Sequence record: NC_041871.1
From: Escherichia phage Murica
Direction: 5' to 3' (one strand)
DNA length: 64,000 nucleotides
Shown: one piece after another, positions 12,152 through 18,913 of the stretch
Layout: every line of letters begins with the position of its first letter
Position numbering within the stretch: position 1 is the stretch's first letter
Program-made: the position numbers and the translations under genes
The notes under the pieces: generated by a model
Databases searched by the model: none
Seen by the model: the letters and a program-made list of their open reading frames with translations, nothing else
Told to the model about the DNA's origin: nothing

Positions 12152-13063
12152 TTATTTCCCGTTAACTTTGTTGTAGTTTCCCTGCTCAGATGGGACTATG
12201 GTAGAAGGTCTTCCATATTCCTGATAATACCAATCCGCAGCCGATTGGGTAACACCGTTTTCATCTGTCCACATCATAGATTTGTATGGCTGCCACTCCT
12301 CTGCAGCGTTTGTGGATGCAGTGTCTGCGAATGCTCCTGTGTCCCTCTTGTTACCTACGTTACTACCATTCTTACAGTCGTTGACAGCGCCTTTTTGTTG
12401 GGTCTTGCCTACTTTCTTAGGATTGCTGTATACAGTTGCATTAACAACCTTATTCAAGTAGAATGTGCGGAACTCTGTAAGTTCTACATCAAACACCATT
12501 GCAGCGCCTTCACCAACAGACTTGTTGGCAGAAAGACTGGTTATGATGTAGTTCTCAAGAAGTCTCTCCTCGGTAACCAAAGAAACCAACTGTCGCTTAT
12601 TGATAATCTCAGTCAAAGCCTCCAATGCAGCGCCTGGTCGCATAGATGCTGCAGGGTTTTTAGAGTCAGTATTCCTATCAATGTAGTTTTGCTCATAGAT
12701 TATGTGTGGGGATGTATTTACCCTACCAGTAAAAGAAAATACACCATCTTTAATTACGGCGTGGTCTGACAGGGTAGATTTATCTTCCACCGCAAACCCA
12801 GTCTTATCAACAGAATGTTTGAAAGAGTAATTCTCAACCTGATCGAAGATAATGGCAAGATCGTTAGTAAAGTTTTTACCCTTCATCTCCGTATTGCGAC
12901 CGCCATAGTTAAGACCGCTGACAAACATAGTGTACTTTACATCGCTTTCAGTTTGCTGCTCTGCCTTTTCAGCCTTTGGAGATTTAACCTCTTGAGGCTT
13001 GTACAGGTCTTTTTCATCAACTATATTGCTTGGCATAACCTCTCCAGGACACTCCGATACCAT
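12152..13063 (-). CDS. hypothetical tail protein (distal tail candidate)
   Basis: 303-aa ORF directly downstream of the tape measure gene. Confidence 0.45.
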   Translation of the reverse strand: MVSECPGEVMPSNIVDEKDLYKPQEVKSPKAEKAEQQTESDVKYTMFVSGLNYGGRNTEMKGKNFTNDLAIIFDQVENYSFKHSVDKTGFAVEDKSTLSDHAVIKDGVFSFTGRVNTSPHIIYEQNYIDRNTDSKNPAASMRPGAALEALTEIINKRQLVSLVTEERLLENYIITSLSANKSVGEGAAMVFDVELTEFRTFYLNKVVNATVYSNPKKVGKTQQKGAVNDCKNGSNVGNKRDTGAFADTASTNAAEEWQPYKSMMWTDENGVTQSAADWYYQEYGRPSTIVPSEQGNYNKVNGK

Positions 13064-13141: not shown

Positions 13142-15478
13142 TTACCAAAGGTCGGTAGACATGAAGTTGATATCTTTATTGTTCTCCCACTCAAGTTTTG
13201 CATCAAATATTTTGTTAAACTCACCCTCATCTATTGAAATCGTGATTTTCCCATCACTGATCTCTAAAGGTAGCATTTCCATAGTTCTTAACTGAGAAGC
13301 AAAACCAGGGCCACCCGGCAACGGAAGAGTCCCGCCAGGCAAGGTGTCCAAAGGATTAACAAACCCGTTACCTCCCGATATGATATCTTTGCGAATCATA
13401 TCGCTGATAGTATCCAGCTGCTGATTTCTTTCACTTAGTGGGTTGTAACGGTCATTAAATAATTCCCCGGCGCTTAGTATTGTACCGATAATGCCCAGCT
13501 TACCGAGCAGACCAACTTTGCCACCAGGTGTCTTGAGGCCACCTCCACCTTTTCCTGCCGGAGCTCCACCACCAGATCCTTCTGTAGTAGCGGCACCTGC
13601 TGCTCCAGCTGCACCCCTTAGAGAGTTAAGGAATTTAAAGGTTTTTACAAGCATAGATGCCATGACAAAACCTTTTGTTAGGGCGTTGACGACCAGCATG
13701 ATGGCAGCAGCAAACCCTGCCCATTTAGCATAGCTAAAGGTGTCATGAAGCTCTTCAGAATATTCCTTCGTCTTAGCTGTTATGAACCCCCATTTAATCC
13801 CCCATTCAAGGAAAAACATGCGGATCTTGACTATAGTGTTGTTTAGTTCACCAACTACCCAGTTAAGGCCTCTCACAAACCCGCTAACAAAATCACCAGA
13901 GGCATCCCACACAAATTGCAGAGTCTCGCCCGTGCGGATCAGTGTATAATAGAACTCTGTTAGTTCGTCAGACCAACGGGTGAACAGTTTCTGACGAGTC
14001 AGTTCGATGAAGGTTTTCAGTCTGTTTTCTGCCAGCACGTTAGACTTCTGCATTCTTTCATAACCAGCTGCAGATGCCTCGTTCATGTACTTAGCCACAT
14101 ACTTCATGATCTTGGCTGTTTTAACCTCACCTTTCTTCATCATGTCCATGAACTGATCCATGGAGAGTTCAGAAAGACCAAAAGCCTCTTTGGTGGCCTT
14201 GATAAAAGGTTCGTATGCACCAGGCAATGCTTCGGCAAGTTGTTGCTTCAGTTCTTCGGACATTACTTGTCCTTTCCCAAGCATCTGTTGGATTGCCATG
14301 ATACCACGCTGGTATTTTACCTCATCGGCACCATAAGCAGCAGCATACTGGGAGTATGCAGAGAACAGCTCATGAACCTCCTGATTTGTCATCTGGTTTT
14401 TGGCGTTTACCGACATCTGGGCGTAACCTTGAAGACCAGATTTGAGATCAAAACCAAGACGCATAGCCTCTTGCTGGACAAACGCAACCTCACTGTTGGC
14501 TTTGTTTGGATCTCCAGTAACAGCAGTAAGAGCAGCACTTGCCCCCTCCATCATGTGACCGGATCTGTTAACCGCAGCAAATCCAGAAAAAGCTGTATAC
14601 GCAGCTGTTGCATTAATAACAGATCTACGTAAGTCTCTCATGGCATCGCCTAGTGTAAGCGTTTGGCTGGTGGCGCTTTTAAACCCAGACTGCAGCGCTG
14701 ACAGGTGGGCGTTAAAGGTTGACTTCTTCATCTCCCCGCGAGCAAACCTGGACTCTAACTCTGAGTATCCTGGCAAGCTTCCACGGAATCCGGCCCCATA
14801 CTTGGCAGAAAGTCTTATCGCGGAGTTGTAGAGGTGGGTTCTCCTTGCCTCACGATCCGACATAAGCCTATTATCCATACCAGCTTTACTGTCTCTTCTT
14901 AGCTGTCTATGATAACGATTCATAGCGGCTGTCTGAGCTTTCACAAGGTTAGGGTCGGAAGCCACACCACCCATATTAGGGTTACCGGGGATATATTTGA
15001 AAGATTTGGCATTAGCCAAAACTCTTGCCTTAGGTGCCTTATAACCACCGTAAGACACTGGTGCAGATTTGGCAGCCTTTTTGGCCTCTTTAGCTTGCTG
15101 CTGGTAGAACTTACGCATCCTAGCCATTTCTGGATTTTTAGCGGTAAGATTACCTACAGCTTGTTTACGTCTCGCATTCTCCCTACGTTCTATTGCAGCC
15201 CTTACTGCAGCCTCTTTCTTGGCCTGTGCTACGCTCTCTCTGTGCAGTTTAGCATTTGCCTGAGATTGCTGTCTGGCAACCCTCTGCATTGTCTGCTGGG
15301 TTTTAACAGCTACCGCCTGCCATCTACTCATGGGGTTGGCTGAGTTAAAATCCTCGCCCAGTTTCCTGAACTCCCTCCCAATACTGCGAATTTTCTCTAC
15401 AGCTTTTTTGTAGGAGGAGTTCTCTATCTCAAAGCCAATCTTGTTGACTGTTGTGGCAACTATTTTGTTTGTAGCCAT
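13142..15478 (-). CDS. tail tape measure protein
   Basis: 778 aa, alpha-helical/charged N-terminal part, Gly-rich hydrophobic segment, preceded by chaperone genes; GAGGA RBS. Confidence 0.8.
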   Translation of the reverse strand: MATNKIVATTVNKIGFEIENSSYKKAVEKIRSIGREFRKLGEDFNSANPMSRWQAVAVKTQQTMQRVARQQSQANAKLHRESVAQAKKEAAVRAAIERRENARRKQAVGNLTAKNPEMARMRKFYQQQAKEAKKAAKSAPVSYGGYKAPKARVLANAKSFKYIPGNPNMGGVASDPNLVKAQTAAMNRYHRQLRRDSKAGMDNRLMSDREARRTHLYNSAIRLSAKYGAGFRGSLPGYSELESRFARGEMKKSTFNAHLSALQSGFKSATSQTLTLGDAMRDLRRSVINATAAYTAFSGFAAVNRSGHMMEGASAALTAVTGDPNKANSEVAFVQQEAMRLGFDLKSGLQGYAQMSVNAKNQMTNQEVHELFSAYSQYAAAYGADEVKYQRGIMAIQQMLGKGQVMSEELKQQLAEALPGAYEPFIKATKEAFGLSELSMDQFMDMMKKGEVKTAKIMKYVAKYMNEASAAGYERMQKSNVLAENRLKTFIELTRQKLFTRWSDELTEFYYTLIRTGETLQFVWDASGDFVSGFVRGLNWVVGELNNTIVKIRMFFLEWGIKWGFITAKTKEYSEELHDTFSYAKWAGFAAAIMLVVNALTKGFVMASMLVKTFKFLNSLRGAAGAAGAATTEGSGGGAPAGKGGGGLKTPGGKVGLLGKLGIIGTILSAGELFNDRYNPLSERNQQLDTISDMIRKDIISGGNGFVNPLDTLPGGTLPLPGGPGFASQLRTMEMLPLEISDGKITISIDEGEFNKIFDAKLEWENNKDINFMSTDLW

Positions 15479-15487
15479 GGTTTCCTC

Positions 15488-15529
15488 ATAATAAAAAGGG
15501 CCAGATCCCAGAAAAGGAATCCGGCCCTT
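15488..15529 (-). terminator. terminator-like hairpin between chaperone and tape measure genes
   Basis: imperfect GC-rich inverted repeat followed on the minus strand by TTTTTATTAT. Confidence 0.4.
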
Positions 15530-15532
15530 AGA

Positions 15533-15907
15533 TTATCCTCTCCTGCGCTTAGCTTTCGCAGCAGCTGCGGCAGCCTTCTGCTCCCGCTCCATTTCCCTGT
15601 TTTGGACGGTATCTAGGAATTCTTCGATATCAAGATACTCACAGAGCTTCAGGAAATACGCCATATCTGCAAGATTTAGCGATTCAAAATTTTCCCCTTT
15701 GAAATTCTTGAGCACCCTACACCAAAGAAAGTCGAACCAGTTGAGTGAACTGTTCTTGGCTGCCCACTCACTGGCCCTCACAACAACCTTGCTTATTCCT
15801 GCTCTTCCGGAGTCTGATCCAGGTTGTTCACCTGCTGAATCATACCCATCTGCTGTAACATCTCCAGAAGGCTTCCTAAACCGTCTTGTGTGAAAAAACA
15901 GCCGTAG
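15533..15907 (-). CDS. -1 frame extension of the tail assembly chaperone (putative frameshift product C-terminal part)
   Basis: the frame of ORF 15533..15781 is open upstream to 15907 and is the -1 frame relative to the chaperone ORF. Confidence 0.4.
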   Translation of the reverse strand, partial: LRLFFHTRRFRKPSGDVTADGYDSAGEQPGSDSGRAGISKVVVRASEWAAKNSSLNWFDFLWCRVLKNFKGENFESLNLADMAYFLKLCEYLDIEEFLDTVQNREMEREQKAAAAAAKAKRRRG

Positions 15908-16266
15908 TTAACCTCCAGAACCTTACCTGCCAGCTTAATCATCTCCAGCAGATGCCCTGCAAACACAACATCTGGGTTAAGCTTATCCACACCATCTACG
16001 GTAATATCTTCGAACAAGATTTTAAATAACTCTTCAATAGAGCTATCATCAAGTTCTTGGAACAGGTAAGCCAGAGCAGTAGGAAGGACCTCTGCCATAT
16101 TCTGACCACCAGAGATAATAGATCCACCGATAGCACCTAGCGGGACAGCCACAATCTTACCGATTTTAGGCATGTTTTTCATTGCTTTCATCGGTCCCCA
16201 GTGGGTGATCACAAAGTTGTGCCCTGCTAAATCAATCTCTGTTGTAGGTCTAAAGTTTATAGCCAT
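15793..16266 (-). CDS. tail assembly chaperone
   Basis: 157-aa acidic protein immediately upstream of the tape measure gene; AAGGATG RBS. Confidence 0.6.
   Translation of the reverse strand: MAINFRPTTEIDLAGHNFVITHWGPMKAMKNMPKIGKIVAVPLGAIGGSIISGGQNMAEVLPTALAYLFQELDDSSIEELFKILFEDITVDGVDKLNPDVVFAGHLLEMIKLAGKVLEVNYGCFFTQDGLGSLLEMLQQMGMIQQVNNLDQTPEEQE
15892..15898 (-). other. candidate -1 programmed ribosomal frameshift slippery heptamer T_TTT_TTC
   Basis: heptamer in the 0 frame of the chaperone ORF (codons C-F-F-T); the -1 frame stays open to 15533. Confidence 0.45.
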
Positions 16267-16293
16267 TTTATAGCATCCTTATTAGTCATGTTG

Positions 16294-16337
16294 TGCACCA
16301 TATTTGTGTATTTTACCATGATTATGGTGCATTGTCA
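16294..16337 (-). promoter_or_regulatory. minus-strand promoter (TTGACA-17-TAAAAT) overlapped by a 9-bp inverted repeat TGCACCATA/TATGGTGCA
   Basis: -35 at 16332-16337 and -10 at 16309-16314 on the minus strand; inverted repeat arms at 16294-16302 and 16323-16331. Confidence 0.5.
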
Positions 16338-16377
16338 ATTTAACCTTTCAAGCAATTCAAGAACGTGTGTCAAAACC

Positions 16378-16411
16378 ATAAAAGCAAAAAGCCCCACCCG
16401 AAGGTGAGGCT
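16378..16411 (-). terminator. rho-independent terminator after the tail tube/sheath genes
   Basis: AGCCTCACC-TTCG-GGTGGGGCT hairpin followed by TTTTTGCTTT on the minus strand. Confidence 0.6.
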
Positions 16412-16428
16412 TATGCTAAAGTGTGCCC

Positions 16429-16902
16429 TTAGATAATACCTGCAAGACCTGCGAGGCCAGTAAGAGCACCAGTGATGTTATCACGGTTGAGCCATGCATC
16501 CAGAATACCGATATCCCAGTCCAGCTGACCTACTTCGGTTCCGTAAGTCAGGTCAGGCTGTTTCTGGATCCAACCAATTGTGGAAATACCAGGACCCTGG
16601 CTACCTTCCAGCAGAACTGGGAAGAATACCAGACCAGTAATCGATGCCTGTTTCTGCCAGTCAGAAAGGTAAGCGTTCCATACAGAAGTGTTCTGCAAAG
16701 ATACAGTCATAACACCAGATTGGTTACGAGACAGGGCCGCAGACATTTCGCCATCCACACCAACGTGAGGGTAGATGTTGTCTTCGTTTCTTGAAACAAC
16801 GATCTTGGTGTCAGCAGCGAAGCCAGTGACACGCTGCTGCATCAGGTACAGTTTGACCTTTTTAGGGTCATACGCATAAGGAGTTAAAATTTGAGTTTCC
16901 AT
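16429..16902 (-). CDS. putative tail tube protein
   Basis: 157-aa ORF immediately after the major tail protein gene; AAGGAAG RBS. Confidence 0.45.
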   Translation of the reverse strand: METQILTPYAYDPKKVKLYLMQQRVTGFAADTKIVVSRNEDNIYPHVGVDGEMSAALSRNQSGVMTVSLQNTSVWNAYLSDWQKQASITGLVFFPVLLEGSQGPGISTIGWIQKQPDLTYGTEVGQLDWDIGILDAWLNRDNITGALTGLAGLAGII

Positions 16903-16912
16903 CTAGTCTTCC

Positions 16913-18289
16913 TTATTCAGTCATTGCAACAGCATTGGTGGATTTAGAACCAACTTTGTCCAGAAGAACGTTGATCCGGATACGAACGAAGTGCAGGGCG
17001 TTGTTATACACCAGTTCTACTTTCACACCTTCCAGAACACGAGCAGCCAACTGATTGGTTGGGATTTCTGCACGTTTAGGAACTGTGATGATCGGGTCGT
17101 AGAATACATTATTGTCTTCGTCGAAACCTGTCAGGATCGCACCATTCTTAATGCCAGTGTTGATTGGGTTGTTCATCAGGACAGACTTGATAACCGGAAG
17201 ATCATCATCAGACATCTTCATGCTTAAACCCATGTTGGAGCGACGATGCATGTACCCAAACATAGATTCTTCAGATCTGAACTTGATCCAGTGTGCAAAA
17301 CGAATAGCGTCTGCATACTGACCTGAAGCACACTTACCTTCCCAGAAAGCGCCAACACCGTTAATCATTCTGTAGAAGTTAACGTGGTTTTCCCAAATAG
17401 CCATACGCTGAGTTAAAGTCAGAGACGGTGCAATCACACCTGGCATCTGTTTTAAGTGCAAGCTGTCGCCGTAAGACGGATCGTTGGATGCCATAGCACC
17501 TATGATACCACCCTCCGGGAAGTCCTTATCTGCACGAGGATCGTACATGCCGACACTGTCATATTGTGCAGCTTTCAGTTTGGTGGCGATGTTATTATCT
17601 TTACCAGTCACATCTTCTGCAGTAGAGTAGACATGCAGCTTGTAGTTAGCCTGAGCCCACTTAGCACATGCTTCAATGTCGGTGTGGTCTTCATGGCACA
17701 GGAAGTACCAATTGTCACGCTCAGCATTGATCTTATCAACTACTGTAGAAGGTTTTTCAGCATTGGCGATATTTTTGATTGTATAGTTACCAGTATGGTA
17801 ACCAACAGTACAGTCACCAGTGATGGTGATAACACCATCAGCAGCCTCTACAGTGATATCGTCCAAGTTATCATCTGCTTCGATTTTAGTCTTCATTGAC
17901 TCTGCAATCTGAGTTGCAGCTGTTCCACCAGAGATAGGGACTATCAAAGAGGTATTGTAGCTACCTTTTGCAATAGTCATTACGACATCGGTATCAGCTG
18001 CGGCAGCAATACCTTTAAAATCTACAGTGGTCTTTTCTTTGGCCTGTCTGCCGATCATAACGTATTGTGGAGGGAATACACCACCAAAAGCTTTTGCTGC
18101 AAACTCATACGCTGCAGAGCCTTGTGCGAAACCATCTTCCACCATCTGATCCAGCTCTGCATATACGCGAGCTCGCTCAGTAAAGTTGTTGTGGATAGCG
18201 ATGAACAGGGGAGTTTCGAAACCTACAGTGTCAATAGGCTGGGTTCCGAGGTTAACTGTAACATCTACCACTTTATCTAAATATGGCAT
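16913..18289 (-). CDS. major tail protein (sheath-like structural protein)
   Basis: 458-aa ORF with a strong RBS, between head and tube/chaperone genes; by recollection resembles phage sheath-like structural proteins. Confidence 0.5.
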   Translation of the reverse strand: MPYLDKVVDVTVNLGTQPIDTVGFETPLFIAIHNNFTERARVYAELDQMVEDGFAQGSAAYEFAAKAFGGVFPPQYVMIGRQAKEKTTVDFKGIAAAADTDVVMTIAKGSYNTSLIVPISGGTAATQIAESMKTKIEADDNLDDITVEAADGVITITGDCTVGYHTGNYTIKNIANAEKPSTVVDKINAERDNWYFLCHEDHTDIEACAKWAQANYKLHVYSTAEDVTGKDNNIATKLKAAQYDSVGMYDPRADKDFPEGGIIGAMASNDPSYGDSLHLKQMPGVIAPSLTLTQRMAIWENHVNFYRMINGVGAFWEGKCASGQYADAIRFAHWIKFRSEESMFGYMHRRSNMGLSMKMSDDDLPVIKSVLMNNPINTGIKNGAILTGFDEDNNVFYDPIITVPKRAEIPTNQLAARVLEGVKVELVYNNALHFVRIRINVLLDKVGSKSTNAVAMTE

Positions 18290-18361: not shown

Positions 18362-18913
18362 TTACTGACCACTGTCTGTAACCGCTTTACCAGAATTGGG
18401 TGAAGGGAAGTGTGTGGTTATTTCAGCCTTAATTCCCTGAAGATCCTCAAAAGCCCCAATGTCTGTTTCAACAAACCTTACGTTAAATGTCAGCATCACA
18501 GTGGCTCTATTTTCATACGTCTGCTTATTCAACGGCACTCTTTGAGGTGAGATTGTTGAATTGTTAGAGTAGGCAAAGCACGATCCCAGAGGGAAATACT
18601 TGTCATAAAACATTGGAAGGTTTATTGCTTGCAATACTCTGCTAAGTGCAGCATATGCTCTGCCACGATAAGCTGTTAGCAGATAGGTAACAGTGTAGCT
18701 GTGGGTGACGTAAGCATTACCCTCCGCATCTTGAAACTCATTATCTTCCCAAGTGGTGGGATTGATCGCCAAGGTTTGTAAGAGTACAAACTCACCTTCC
18801 GGCTTCGGTATGGTAGAGCTTTCTGCCAGAACTACAGTTCTTCCTGTGGCAACCTTGACAAGCTTAGCAATGGTTGTTTCAAGATCAGAAAAAACTTTTT
18901 CGAAAGCTTCCAT
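18362..18913 (-). CDS. hypothetical head-tail joining/neck protein
   Basis: 183-aa ORF with AAGGAG RBS. Confidence 0.4.
   Translation of the reverse strand: MEAFEKVFSDLETTIAKLVKVATGRTVVLAESSTIPKPEGEFVLLQTLAINPTTWEDNEFQDAEGNAYVTHSYTVTYLLTAYRGRAYAALSRVLQAINLPMFYDKYFPLGSCFAYSNNSTISPQRVPLNKQTYENRATVMLTFNVRFVETDIGAFEDLQGIKAEITTHFPSPNSGKAVTDSGQ

What the first reader, a model, noticed from the sequence alone, without database searches (positions are those of the whole stretch)
15533..16266. Candidate -1 programmed frameshift in the tail assembly chaperone
The chaperone ORF (15793..16266) contains the slippery heptamer T_TTT_TTC at 15892-15898 in the correct register. The -1 frame is open from there to 15533, ending just before the tape measure gene. 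This would yield a short product of 157 aa and a fused product of about 245 aa, the arrangement conserved upstream of tape measure genes in many tailed phages.
Basis: partly seen in the sequence, partly recalled or inferred. Interest (0 to 1): 0.55.

Follow-up and report, generated by a model that had tools for sequence, protein, structure and literature searches.

The report
Tail chaperone frameshift in phage rV5
The tail-assembly chaperone gene of this rV5-like coliphage almost certainly uses a conserved ribosomal slip at TTTTTTC to make a second, longer protein. This is the standard trick of long-tailed phages and is already annotated in related phages, but none of the rV5-group database records inspected here annotates it.

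Summary
The window is an rV5-like Vequintavirus. On the minus strand lie sheath, tube, a 157-aa tail assembly chaperone (TAC-N, 15793-16266, Pfam PF21822), an 82-aa "hypothetical" ORF and the tape measure gene. T_TTT_TTC (15898-15892) is in register (Cys123-Phe124-Phe125). The -1 frame opens 3 codons before it and runs 119 codons to 15533, giving a 244-aa fused product.

Comparative evidence is strong:
- All 72 related IMG/VR loci have an in-register slippery heptamer in the overlap: 68 T_TTT_TTC, 3 T_TTT_TTT, 1 G_GGA_AAG.
- In 71 non-identical genes, the -1 frame has 949 stops in 9486 codons upstream of the heptamer. It has none in 1985 codons after it.
- Synonymous-site identity rises from about 0.4 to 0.9 at the site.
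- The downstream ORF has no conserved start codon.

The homologous site is already annotated as a joined CDS in Mooglevirus Mordin. A 2025 paper predicts it for Vandenendeviridae and Andersonviridae. No Vequintavirinae or Stephanstirmvirinae record I inspected annotates it.

rV5 has no 3' stimulatory RNA structure. A GGAGG 13 nt upstream may act as a stimulator.

Verdict: a real, ordinary, unannotated member of the known G/GT-type frameshift. No protein-level evidence exists.

The parts
16389..16412 (-). Terminator-like hairpin after the tube gene, upstream of the chaperone unit
   Evidence: 10-pair stem with 6 G-C pairs, followed by a T run.
16310..16338 (-). Sigma-70-like promoter of the chaperone unit (TTGACA, 17 nt, TAAAAT, with TG)
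   Evidence: 11 of 12 consensus matches. The rV5 GenBank record annotates it as promoter P51.
16276..16280 (-). Ribosome binding site AAGGA, 9 nt before the ATG of TAC-N
   Evidence: Read directly from the sequence.
15793..16266 (-). TAC-N: the 157-aa tail assembly chaperone made by standard decoding
15912..15916 (-). GGAGG, a Shine-Dalgarno-like element 13 nt 5' of the heptamer and a candidate upstream stimulator (inferred)
   Evidence: Sequence. GAGG sits at this position in 37 of 53 unique contexts. Synonymous conservation starts to rise at codons 117-119. This is confounded with the conserved L-E-V peptide.
15892..15898 (-). Slippery heptamer T_TTT_TTC. P site is UUU (Phe124) and A site is UUC (Phe125).
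   Evidence: Identical in all Vequintavirinae genera sampled (Vequintavirus, Henunavirus, Seunavirus, Mydovirus, Certrevirus), Stephanstirmvirinae, Ounavirinae and Plateaulakevirus. 68 of 72 IMG/VR loci carry it. Codons 123-125 are synonymously invariant or nearly so: 91/92, 120/120 and 120/120 pairs.
15796..15891 (-). Dual-coding overlap of 32 codons. The zero frame gives the TAC-N-specific tail TQDG...EEQE. The -1 frame gives the Gly/Ser/Asp-rich linker of the long form.
   Evidence: Synonymous-site identity is 0.5-0.9 here, against about 0.35-0.55 upstream.
15533..15892 (-). The part of the long isoform TAC-NC encoded in the -1 frame: 119 codons plus the TAA stop
   Evidence: No -1 stops in 1985 codons of the equivalent overlap in 71 non-identical relatives. 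The -1 frame stays open for 78-129 codons after the heptamer.
15536..15796 (-). Conserved C-terminal 'T' domain (ISKVV...KNSSLNWFDFLWCRVLKNFKGE...YLDIEEF...RRRG), previously called as an 82-aa hypothetical ORF
   Evidence: phrog_10409, unknown function. Conserved across subfamilies in alignment A2. No Pfam or NCBIfam family. The AlphaFold2 model is poor (pLDDT 51) and shows four helices.
15496..15529 (-). Terminator-like hairpin immediately after the -1 frame stop and before the tape measure gene
   Evidence: 14-pair stem. Annotated as a terminator in the rV5 record.
13142..15478 (-). Tape measure protein gene (778 aa), the presumed client of the chaperone
   Evidence: PF20155 TMP_3. phrog_5255, E=0.
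16429..16902 (-). Tail tube protein gene (157 aa), the presumed partner of the T domain
   Evidence: PF11681. phrog_280, virion structural protein. It lies directly after the sheath gene 16913-18289 (phrog_205).

Best explanation
This is the tail assembly chaperone gene of an rV5-like myovirus. It makes two proteins from one mRNA by -1 programmed ribosomal frameshifting.

Most ribosomes read straight through and make the 157-aa TAC-N. A minority pause with tRNA-Phe on UUU (P site) and UUC (A site) of U_UUU_UUC. Both tRNAs re-pair one base back on UUU UUU, and translation continues in the -1 frame with CAC (His). The result is the 244-aa TAC-NC. It has the first 125 residues of TAC-N, a roughly 32-residue Gly/Ser/Asp-rich linker, and a conserved helical C-terminal domain of about 87 residues.

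By analogy with lambda gpG/gpGT, the shared N domain would coat the tape measure protein. The C domain of the rare long form would recruit the tube protein to start tail polymerisation. Neither form would be expected in the virion.

Shown here: the anatomy, the conservation, the selection on the -1 frame and on synonymous sites, and homology to a site already annotated as a frameshift.

Inferred: that slippage actually occurs, its efficiency (probably a few per cent, because there is no 3' structure), the roles of the two domains, and a possible boost from the GGAGG 13 nt upstream.
For: Gene identity and synteny (sheath, tube, TAC, ORF, TMP).

Register and open frame.

The same heptamer at the same aligned codon, with an open -1 frame:
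- Vequintavirus, Henunavirus, Seunavirus and Mydovirus at 64-68% nucleotide identity
- Certrevirus, Stephanstirmvirinae and Plateaulakevirus
- Felixounavirus and Mooglevirus

All 72 IMG/VR loci have an in-register heptamer in the overlap. The -1 frame extends 46-92 aa past the stop, against 2-26 aa for the +1 frame.

Barbavirus and locus L059 use the lambda-type G_GGA_AAG within 3 codons of the same place. So the slip function is what is conserved, not just the letters.

-1 frame stops number 949 in 9486 codons upstream of the heptamer and 0 in 1985 codons after it. The +1 frame has 115 stops in 1914 codons of the same stretch.

Synonymous-site identity peaks at 0.8-0.9 over codons 120-132.

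The downstream ORF has no conserved start. In Mydo, K45 and Hena1 the first start codon lies 79-83 codons after the slip, inside the conserved domain.

The peptide just after the slip (FF-x-x-R-F-R-K/R-P) is conserved in the -1 frame across families.

The terminator follows the -1 stop, not the TAC-N stop.

The slip site falls where the Pfam TAC domain ends and where confident structure in the AlphaFold2 model ends.

The homologous site is annotated as a joined CDS in Mordin and reported as a translational frameshift in Moogle. It is predicted for Vandenendeviridae and Andersonviridae (PMC12846349).

In E. coli, U_UUC is the second most shift-prone tetramer. U_UU.U_UU.C is listed among the heptamers giving more than 0.1% frameshifting without a stimulator and is used by IS elements (PMC4066793).
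Against: No protein-level or reporter evidence exists for any member of this clade in the sources searched. The rV5 genome and proteome paper does not mention it.

rV5 has no significant RNA structure 3' of the heptamer. The z-score is 0.06 for the 50 nt downstream, and the mean over 53 contexts is 0.05. The only consensus hairpin is 5 bp, and the whole consensus structure scores only about -2 kcal/mol.

The slip site lies 32 codons before the TAC-N stop, further upstream than in lambda.

The T domain has no recognised family and modelled poorly.

The related loci were retrieved partly with a peptide pattern that requires Phe-Phe at the site. This biases the sample toward F-F, though not toward the codons TTT TTC or toward the preceding T.
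Confidence: 0.88

Rival explanations
1. The downstream ORF is a separate gene. It starts at GTG 15781 and gives an 82-aa protein, with no frameshift.
For: A GTG with a weak AAGG 5 nt upstream exists in the window. Many GenBank records call it this way. Three protein clusters of 80-82 aa exist in the large protein database.
Against: The start is not conserved. Relatives have Leu or Gln at that codon. In Mydo, K45 and Hena1 the first possible start lies 79-83 codons after the slip, inside the conserved domain. Annotators pick inconsistent starts or call no gene at all. The -1 frame is stop-free all the way back to the heptamer in 71 non-identical genes, and the peptide there is conserved. Independent initiation does not need any of that.
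Confidence: 0.05
2. The long form arises by transcriptional slippage. RNA polymerase adds or drops a U in the T6 run, and the ribosome does not slip.
For: The site is a homopolymer run. Three relatives have T7. One deposited Felix-like genome (CL1) has an extra T that fuses the frames.
Against: From my own knowledge, programmed transcriptional slippage in bacteria normally needs runs of about 8-9 or more identical bases. Six is short. The conserved C after the run and the conserved T in the wobble position of the preceding codon fit tandem tRNA re-pairing. One lineage replaces the run by G_GGA_AAG, which is a ribosomal slip motif and not a homopolymer.
Confidence: 0.04
3. Frameshifting occurs at a different place in the overlap, for example the in-register tetramer T_TTA (T_TTC in relatives) at 15880-15877, four codons downstream.
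For: GGT TT[A/C] is conserved in many relatives. U_UUC is the second-best tetramer in E. coli.
Against: Tetramers without a strong stimulator are barely above background. In the window itself it is the weak U_UUA. The wobble T of the codon before the heptamer is conserved through Cys, Ser and Pro codons, which matters only for P-site re-pairing on the heptamer. Felix-like phages lack the tetramer at that place.
Confidence: 0.02
4. The open -1 frame and the heptamer are coincidental and nothing is made from them.
For: In-register heptamers occur about once per 320 codons in this module.
Against:: conservation, absence of stops and synonymous constraint are incompatible with chance.
Confidence: 0.01

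Closest known systems
Mooglevirus/Felixounavirus (Ounavirinae) tape measure chaperone frameshift, e.g. Citrobacter phages Moogle and Mordin
   Same: TAC-N is homologous: same Pfam PF21822, 22-26% identity over the fused protein. The heptamer T_TTT_TTC sits at the same alignment column (LEANFGSFF against LEVNYGCFF), with the same GGAGG upstream. The T domain is homologous, and the gene sits in the same position before the tape measure gene. It is annotated as a joined CDS in NC_041977 and mentioned in PMC4319497.
   Different: The overlap is shorter, 12-15 codons against 33, and the proteins are shorter, 132/213 aa against 157/244 aa. It belongs to a different subfamily. The rV5-group records inspected carry no such annotation.
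Vandenendeviridae (Pakpunavirus, phage Adele) TAC-N/TAC-NC -1 frameshift at an invariant GTTTTT motif (PMC12846349)
   Same: The logic and evidence type are the same: a poly-T motif near the end of TAC-N and a -1 frame never interrupted in 56 alleles. The paper treats this clade as related to Vequintavirinae.
   Different: That paper analysed Vandenendeviridae and Andersonviridae, not Vequintavirinae. I did not compare its sequences directly.
Phage lambda gpG/gpGT (Xu, Hendrix & Duda 2004; reviewed in PMC5009743)
   Same: Two products from overlapping ORFs between the major tail gene and the tape measure gene. A -1 slip on a heptamer gives a rare long form (molar ratio about 30:1 in lambda). 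The Rheinheimera relatives even use lambda's G_GGA_AAG.
   Different: A different heptamer (Phe-Phe tRNAs instead of Gly-Lys). A contractile-tailed phage. The slip is 32 codons before the stop, not at the very end of the ORF. There is no detectable sequence similarity, and the T domain matches no Pfam family, lambda's gpT family included.
Phage P2 E/E+E' (a myovirus example)
   Same: A contractile-tailed phage with a -1 frameshift in the chaperone gene upstream of the tape measure gene. From memory, its slip site is also a T run. Efficiency is reported as 2-3 fold higher than in lambda.
   Different: Unrelated protein sequences and a different gene order context (FI, FII, E, E', T). Not compared here.
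E. coli dnaX and IS911 frameshift signals
   Same: A -1 slip on a homopolymeric heptamer. From memory, a Shine-Dalgarno-like element 10-14 nt upstream stimulates it. Here GGAGG lies 13 nt upstream.
   Different: dnaX also has a strong 3' hairpin and uses A_AAA_AAG. Here the 5' element is only a hypothesis and is confounded with the L-E-V coding.

Membership tests
G/GT-type tail assembly chaperone -1 programmed frameshift of long-tailed phages | Two overlapping ORFs lying between the major tail (tube) gene and the tape measure gene | tested here: met
   Sheath 16913-18289, tube 16429-16902, TAC 15793-16266, -1 ORF to 15533, TMP 13142-15478.
G/GT-type tail assembly chaperone -1 programmed frameshift of long-tailed phages | The second ORF is in the -1 frame and has no conserved start codon of its own | tested here: met
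   Frame offset checked. Start codons are not conserved, and in three relatives the first one lies inside the conserved domain.
G/GT-type tail assembly chaperone -1 programmed frameshift of long-tailed phages | An X_XXY_YYZ slippery heptamer in register within the overlap, conserved among relatives | tested here: met
   T_TTT_TTC at 15898-15892. All 72 related loci have a heptamer, and one lineage substitutes G_GGA_AAG.
G/GT-type tail assembly chaperone -1 programmed frameshift of long-tailed phages | Purifying selection on the -1 frame and on synonymous sites around the slip site | tested here: met
   0 stops in 1985 -1-frame codons after the site, against 949 in 9486 before it. Synonymous identity is 0.8-0.9 at codons 120-132, against a baseline of about 0.4.
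G/GT-type tail assembly chaperone -1 programmed frameshift of long-tailed phages | Both products are made in a fixed ratio, both are needed for tail assembly, and both are absent from virions | not testable with these tools
   Needs proteomics of infected cells and genetics. The rV5 virion proteome paper does not mention the gene.
G/GT-type tail assembly chaperone -1 programmed frameshift of long-tailed phages | A stimulatory element. This is common but not obligatory. | tested here: inconclusive
   No 3' structure in rV5. Strong hairpins lie 7 nt downstream in the distant relatives L084, L087 and L096. GGAGG lies 13 nt upstream, with GAGG in 37 of 53 contexts, but it overlaps conserved codons.
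Pfam PF21822 Phage_TAC_15 | HMM score above the gathering threshold | tested here: met
   83 bits against a cut-off of 22, residues 15-129. The Felix-like fused protein also matches, at 68 bits.
Tail assembly chaperone fold (HK97 gp10, YqbN) | Structural similarity of the N domain to solved TACs | tested here: inconclusive
Ounavirinae/Vandenendeviridae poly-T TAC frameshift (Moogle, Mordin, Adele) | Homologous TAC-N with the poly-T slip motif at the same aligned position, and a homologous C-terminal extension | tested here: met
   Alignment A2. Heptamer and frames in Alf5, ekra and Mordin. Joined CDS in Mordin. Vandenendeviridae were not compared directly and are known only from PMC12846349.
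Lambda gpT-like T domain (Pfam minor tail protein T) | Sequence match of the C-terminal extension to a known T-domain family | tested here: not met
   No Pfam or NCBIfam hit at E<=1. Only phrog_10409, unknown function.
Programmed transcriptional slippage | A homopolymer run long enough for RNA polymerase slippage (about 8-9 or more, from my own knowledge) | tested here: not met
   The run is T6 in the window and in 68 of 72 relatives.

The most novel reading that the evidence does not exclude
The T_TTT_TTC site may be an ancient recoding signal that works without any 3' RNA structure in the enterobacterial lineages. It would instead be boosted by a conserved Shine-Dalgarno-like GAGG 13-14 nt upstream, a dnaX-style 5' stimulator not described for phage tail chaperones.

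The unusually long 99-nt dual-coding overlap would give the short isoform a conserved 32-residue tail of its own, with a function the long isoform lacks.

The same site would be inherited across at least Vequintavirinae, Stephanstirmvirinae, Ounavirinae and Plateaulakevirus. Occasional lineages swap the heptamer (G_GGA_AAG) or add a 3' hairpin.
Probability: 0.3. Interest if true: 0.35.

Novelty: new member of a known kind. Interest (0 to 1): 0.25.

Why it matters
It corrects the annotation of a whole group of phages used in therapy and biocontrol. More than 100 Vequintavirus records, plus related genera, list the C-terminal domain as a separate hypothetical protein or as nothing.

The T domain is nearly invisible in protein databases: 3 clusters against 73 for TAC-N.

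Anyone recoding or refactoring rV5-type tail genes must keep the heptamer and the overlap intact, or tail assembly is likely to fail.

Biologically it adds one more clade to a well-known rule and does not change the rule.

Tried and rejected
**3' stimulatory stem-loop or pseudoknot in rV5.** Single-sequence folds of 62 and 109 nt gave z = +0.58 and -1.28. RNAalifold on 8 relatives found only a 5-bp hairpin, with a consensus energy of about -2 kcal/mol and no compensatory change in that hairpin. Folds of 53 unique contexts gave a mean z of 0.05. I rejected this for rV5. Some distant relatives do have a real hairpin.

**Fused protein already in databases.** All 73 homologues in the 5.8-billion-protein collection are 149-159 aa. 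None of the roughly 20 Vequintavirinae and Stephanstirmvirinae records inspected has a joined CDS.

**Felixounavirus CL1's single 213-aa ORF as a natural in-frame fusion.** It carries one extra T relative to the other Felix-like matches, which are 1 nt shorter in every listed row. It is probably a homopolymer sequencing error or a mutant, so I do not use it as evidence.

**Split downstream ORFs in PMBT16 and NHEP1.** These looked like nonsense mutations. The -1 frame is intact in both, so the split is a gene-caller artefact.

**Family assignment of the T domain.** Pfam and NCBIfam gave nothing. The AlphaFold2 model was too poor (pLDDT 51) for a fold search.

**Literature.** I found no mention of this frameshift for rV5, Vequintavirus or phiTE.
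Full report
**What the window is.** The 1-kb region around the finding is 99-100% identical to Escherichia phage rV5 and about 115 other Vequintavirus genomes. On the minus strand the gene order is:
- neck terminator, 18362-18913
- sheath, 16913-18289 (phrog_205)
- tube, 16429-16902
- a 157-aa ORF, 15793-16266
- an 82-aa ORF, 15533-15781
- a 778-aa tape measure protein, 13142-15478
- Dit-like and baseplate genes

The 157-aa protein matches Pfam PF21822 (Phage_TAC_15) at E=3e-23 over residues 15-129, and phrog_3840 (tail assembly chaperone) at E=6.5e-69. The 82-aa ORF matches only phrog_10409, of unknown function.

**Checking the observation.** Reading the minus strand, the ATG is at 16266 and the zero frame reads TGT TTT TTC at 15900-15892. 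So TTTTTTC at 15898-15892 is a T_TTT_TTC heptamer in the register needed for tandem -1 slippage. It is the only X_XXY_YYZ heptamer in register in this ORF. The -1 frame carries 14 stops between 16252 and 15910. It opens at 15907, three codons before the heptamer, and stays open to the TAA at 15535-15533.

The products would be 157 aa and 125 + 119 = 244 aa.

A heptamer alone is weak evidence. The 15 tail and baseplate ORFs contain 13 in-register heptamers in 4133 positions. However, only this one is followed by a long -1 ORF, 119 codons against 0-19 for the other twelve.

**Comparative test within the subfamily.** Representatives of Henunavirus, Seunavirus, Mydovirus and the TH18 lineage share only 64-68% nucleotide identity with the window over this gene. 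All keep AACTACGGnTGTTTTTTCAC at the same codon. All have the -1 frame open from a few codons upstream to just before the tape measure gene. All encode a conserved peptide there (...SKVVxRAxxYAxKNSSLxWFDYLWCRxLKxFKGE...YLDxEEF...).

**More distant relatives.** A tblastn with the fused 244-aa sequence found 489 phage records. Of these, 352 cover at least 80% of it in two pieces, which means two frames. What the more distant relatives show:
- Certrevirus CR3, phage A5-4, Stephanstirmvirinae (ZCKP1, a phi92-like phage, KP2025) and Aeromonas phage 4L372D all have T_TTT_TTC at the aligned position.
- Felixounavirus and Mooglevirus have it too, in LEANFGSFF against LEVNYGCFF in rV5.
- Rheinheimera Barbavirus has no T run. 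It carries G_GGA_AAG, the lambda G/GT heptamer, three codons further on, again followed by an open -1 frame.

Replacement of one slippery motif by another at the same place argues that the slip itself is under selection.

**Larger sample.** A scan of IMG/VR with the alignment of fused proteins returned 72 loci. In all 72 the overlap contains an in-register heptamer: 68 T_TTT_TTC, 3 T_TTT_TTT and 1 G_GGA_AAG. The -1 frame extends 46-92 aa beyond the zero-frame stop, whereas the +1 frame extends only 2-26 aa.

One caveat applies. One of the two retrieval patterns requires Phe-Phe at the site. That does not fix the codons, and it does not fix the wobble T of the preceding Cys, Ser or Pro codon, which is T in all 53 unique contexts.

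Over 71 non-identical TAC-N genes:

| Frame and stretch | Codons | Stops |
|---|---|---|
| -1 frame, upstream of the heptamer | 9486 | 949 |
| -1 frame, heptamer to zero-frame stop | 1985 | 0 |
| +1 frame, same stretch | 1914 | 115 |

**Synonymous sites.** I built a codon alignment of 16 TAC-N genes at 40-74% amino-acid identity. The fraction of identical codons among pairs with the same amino acid is about 0.35-0.55 over codons 1-116. It climbs from codon 117 and reaches 0.8-0.9 over codons 120-132. Cys123 scores 91/92 pairs, and Phe124 and Phe125 score 120/120 each. It stays at 0.5-0.8 to the stop. This is the expected signature of a recoding site followed by a dual-coding stretch.

**Independent initiation is unlikely.** The GTG at 15781 is Leu or Gln in relatives. 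In Mydo, K45 and Hena1 the first ATG, GTG or TTG in the -1 frame lies 79-83 codons after the slip, downstream of the most conserved block.

Annotators disagree accordingly. They call ORFs of 44-122 aa, or two fragments, or nothing. The original rV5 record starts ORF 50 at a CTG at window position 15901, right at the slip site. The split ORFs in PMBT16 and NHEP1 are not mutations, because the frame is intact in both.

The residues just after the slip (FF-H/R/Q-x-R-F-R-K/R-P) are conserved in the -1 frame across subfamilies. The large protein collection holds 73 clusters of TAC-N, all 149-159 aa, but only 3 clusters of the downstream ORF and no fused protein.

**Mechanism.** With UUU in the P site and UUC in the A site, the two tRNA-Phe can re-pair on UUU UUU after a -1 shift. 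The next codon is then CAC. In E. coli the tetramer hierarchy is A_AAG >> U_UUC > U_UUU. Heptamers with all-pyrimidine X and Z are among the more shift-prone. U_UU.U_UU.C is listed among motifs with more than 0.1% frameshifting without a stimulator, and IS elements use it (PMC4066793).

I found no 3' stimulator in rV5:
- z = +0.58 and -1.28 for 62- and 109-nt folds
- a consensus structure of only about -2 kcal/mol, including a single 5-bp hairpin, without compensatory changes in that hairpin
- a mean z of 0.05 over 53 contexts

Three distant relatives (L084, L087, L096) do have strong hairpins starting 7 nt after the heptamer, with z = -4.5, -2.7 and -2.7. That is the canonical arrangement.

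Upstream, GGAGG (15916-15912) lies 13 nt from the heptamer. GAGG is at that position in 37 of 53 unique contexts. From my own knowledge, this is the spacing at which a Shine-Dalgarno-like element stimulates -1 shifting in dnaX. But it overlaps the conserved Leu-Glu-Val codons, so it remains a hypothesis.

I expect a low efficiency, in the range of a few per cent. That fits the roughly 30:1 ratio known for lambda G:GT (PMC5009743).

After the slip, TAC-NC has a Gly/Ser/Asp-rich linker of about 32 residues whose length varies among relatives. The linker lies entirely within the overlap. The conserved C-terminal domain begins exactly where the TAC-N ORF ends, at 15796. That domain has no Pfam or NCBIfam family. 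It modelled poorly (pLDDT 51) as four helices.

The zero-frame tail of TAC-N (residues 126-157) is itself conserved (G-F/L-x-x-L...G-M-x-x-Q-V-N-x-x-D-Q). So both frames are constrained in the 99-nt overlap.

The roles of the N domain (binding the tape measure protein) and the C domain (recruiting the tube protein) are inferred from lambda, not shown here.

**Transcription context.** The chaperone gene looks like its own unit:
- a terminator-like hairpin at 16412-16389
- a near-consensus sigma-70 promoter at 16338-16310
- the gene itself
- a 14-bp terminator-like hairpin at 15529-15496, placed after the -1 frame stop rather than after the TAC-N stop

The rV5 GenBank record annotates this promoter and the terminator at 15529-15496.

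**Comparison with what is known.** The conserved G/GT frameshift of long-tailed phages is textbook (PMC5009743; PMC8785237). The site homologous to the one here is already recognised in close structural relatives:
- The RefSeq record of Mooglevirus Mordin carries a joined "tail assembly chaperone" CDS.
- A December 2025 paper predicts a conserved -1 frameshift at an invariant GTTTTT motif in 56 Vandenendeviridae alleles and 231 Andersonviridae genomes. It names Vequintavirinae as a related clade but did not analyse its chaperone locus (PMC12846349).

The rV5 genome and proteome paper and the phiTE cryo-EM paper do not mention it. None of the Vequintavirinae or Stephanstirmvirinae records I opened annotates it.

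**Verdict.** The finding is correct and well supported by comparative genomics. It is an unannotated member of a known kind, not a new mechanism. My confidence that a -1 ribosomal frameshift at 15898-15892 yields a 244-aa TAC-NC is 0.88.

The rivals share the rest:
- independent initiation, 0.05
- transcriptional slippage, 0.04
- a slip elsewhere in the overlap, 0.02
- chance, 0.01

Interest is low to moderate at 0.25. The value is mainly in correcting annotation, plus the modestly interesting points of a possible 5' stimulator, the long dual-coding overlap, and the heptamer swap in one lineage.

Noticed in passing
window 15496-16412 (minus strand): The chaperone gene appears to be its own transcription unit. 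It has a terminator-like hairpin at 16412-16389 and a near-consensus sigma-70 promoter at 16338-16310. A second terminator-like hairpin at 15529-15496 sits between the -1 frame stop and the tape measure start, so the tape measure gene would need read-through or its own promoter.
   Followed up: partly
window 15533-15901; L001 (DQ832317) 1634-2002: The original rV5 GenBank record annotates ORF 50 (ABI79121, 122 aa) starting at a non-canonical CTG exactly at the slip site and overlapping ORF 51 by 109 nt. The annotators saw the long open frame but did not call a frameshift.
   Followed up: yes
L021 (OK040806, Escherichia phage CL1) 874-1515: This Felixounavirus record has T7 instead of T6 at the slip site, giving one continuous 213-aa 'tape measure chaperone' ORF. 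The other Felix-like matches are 1 nt shorter in every listed row. It is probably a homopolymer sequencing error, or possibly a viable fused mutant.
   Followed up: partly
L020 (Rheinheimera phage Barba30A) 817-1511; L059: These relatives use the lambda-type heptamer G_GGA_AAG within about 3 codons of the place where all others have T_TTT_TTC. This looks like a slip-site swap within one protein family.
   Followed up: partly
L084, L087, L096 (IMG/VR contigs), 7 nt 3' of the heptamer: Distant family members have strong hairpins at the canonical spacing (for example -24.1 kcal/mol, z = -4.45 in L084). The enterobacterial phages, rV5 included, have none.
   Followed up: partly
phage records MG065635, MG065653, MG065655 and others: Some 18-23 records named 'Campylobacter phage' (host Campylobacter jejuni) match the window's query region at 98-100% identity, like the rV5-like coliphages. 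One record (MG065664) matches the Felix O1-like query. They are probably mislabelled or contaminant assemblies.
   Followed up: no
protein databases: The C-terminal domain ORF is almost absent from the 5.8-billion-protein collection: 3 clusters against 73 for TAC-N. Gene callers seldom call it.
   Followed up: yes
window 12176-12182 (minus strand, ORF 12152-13063): An in-register G_GGA_AAC heptamer lies 7 codons before the stop of the Dit-like gene. The -1 frame closes after 4 codons, so it is not a candidate recoding site.
   Followed up: yes
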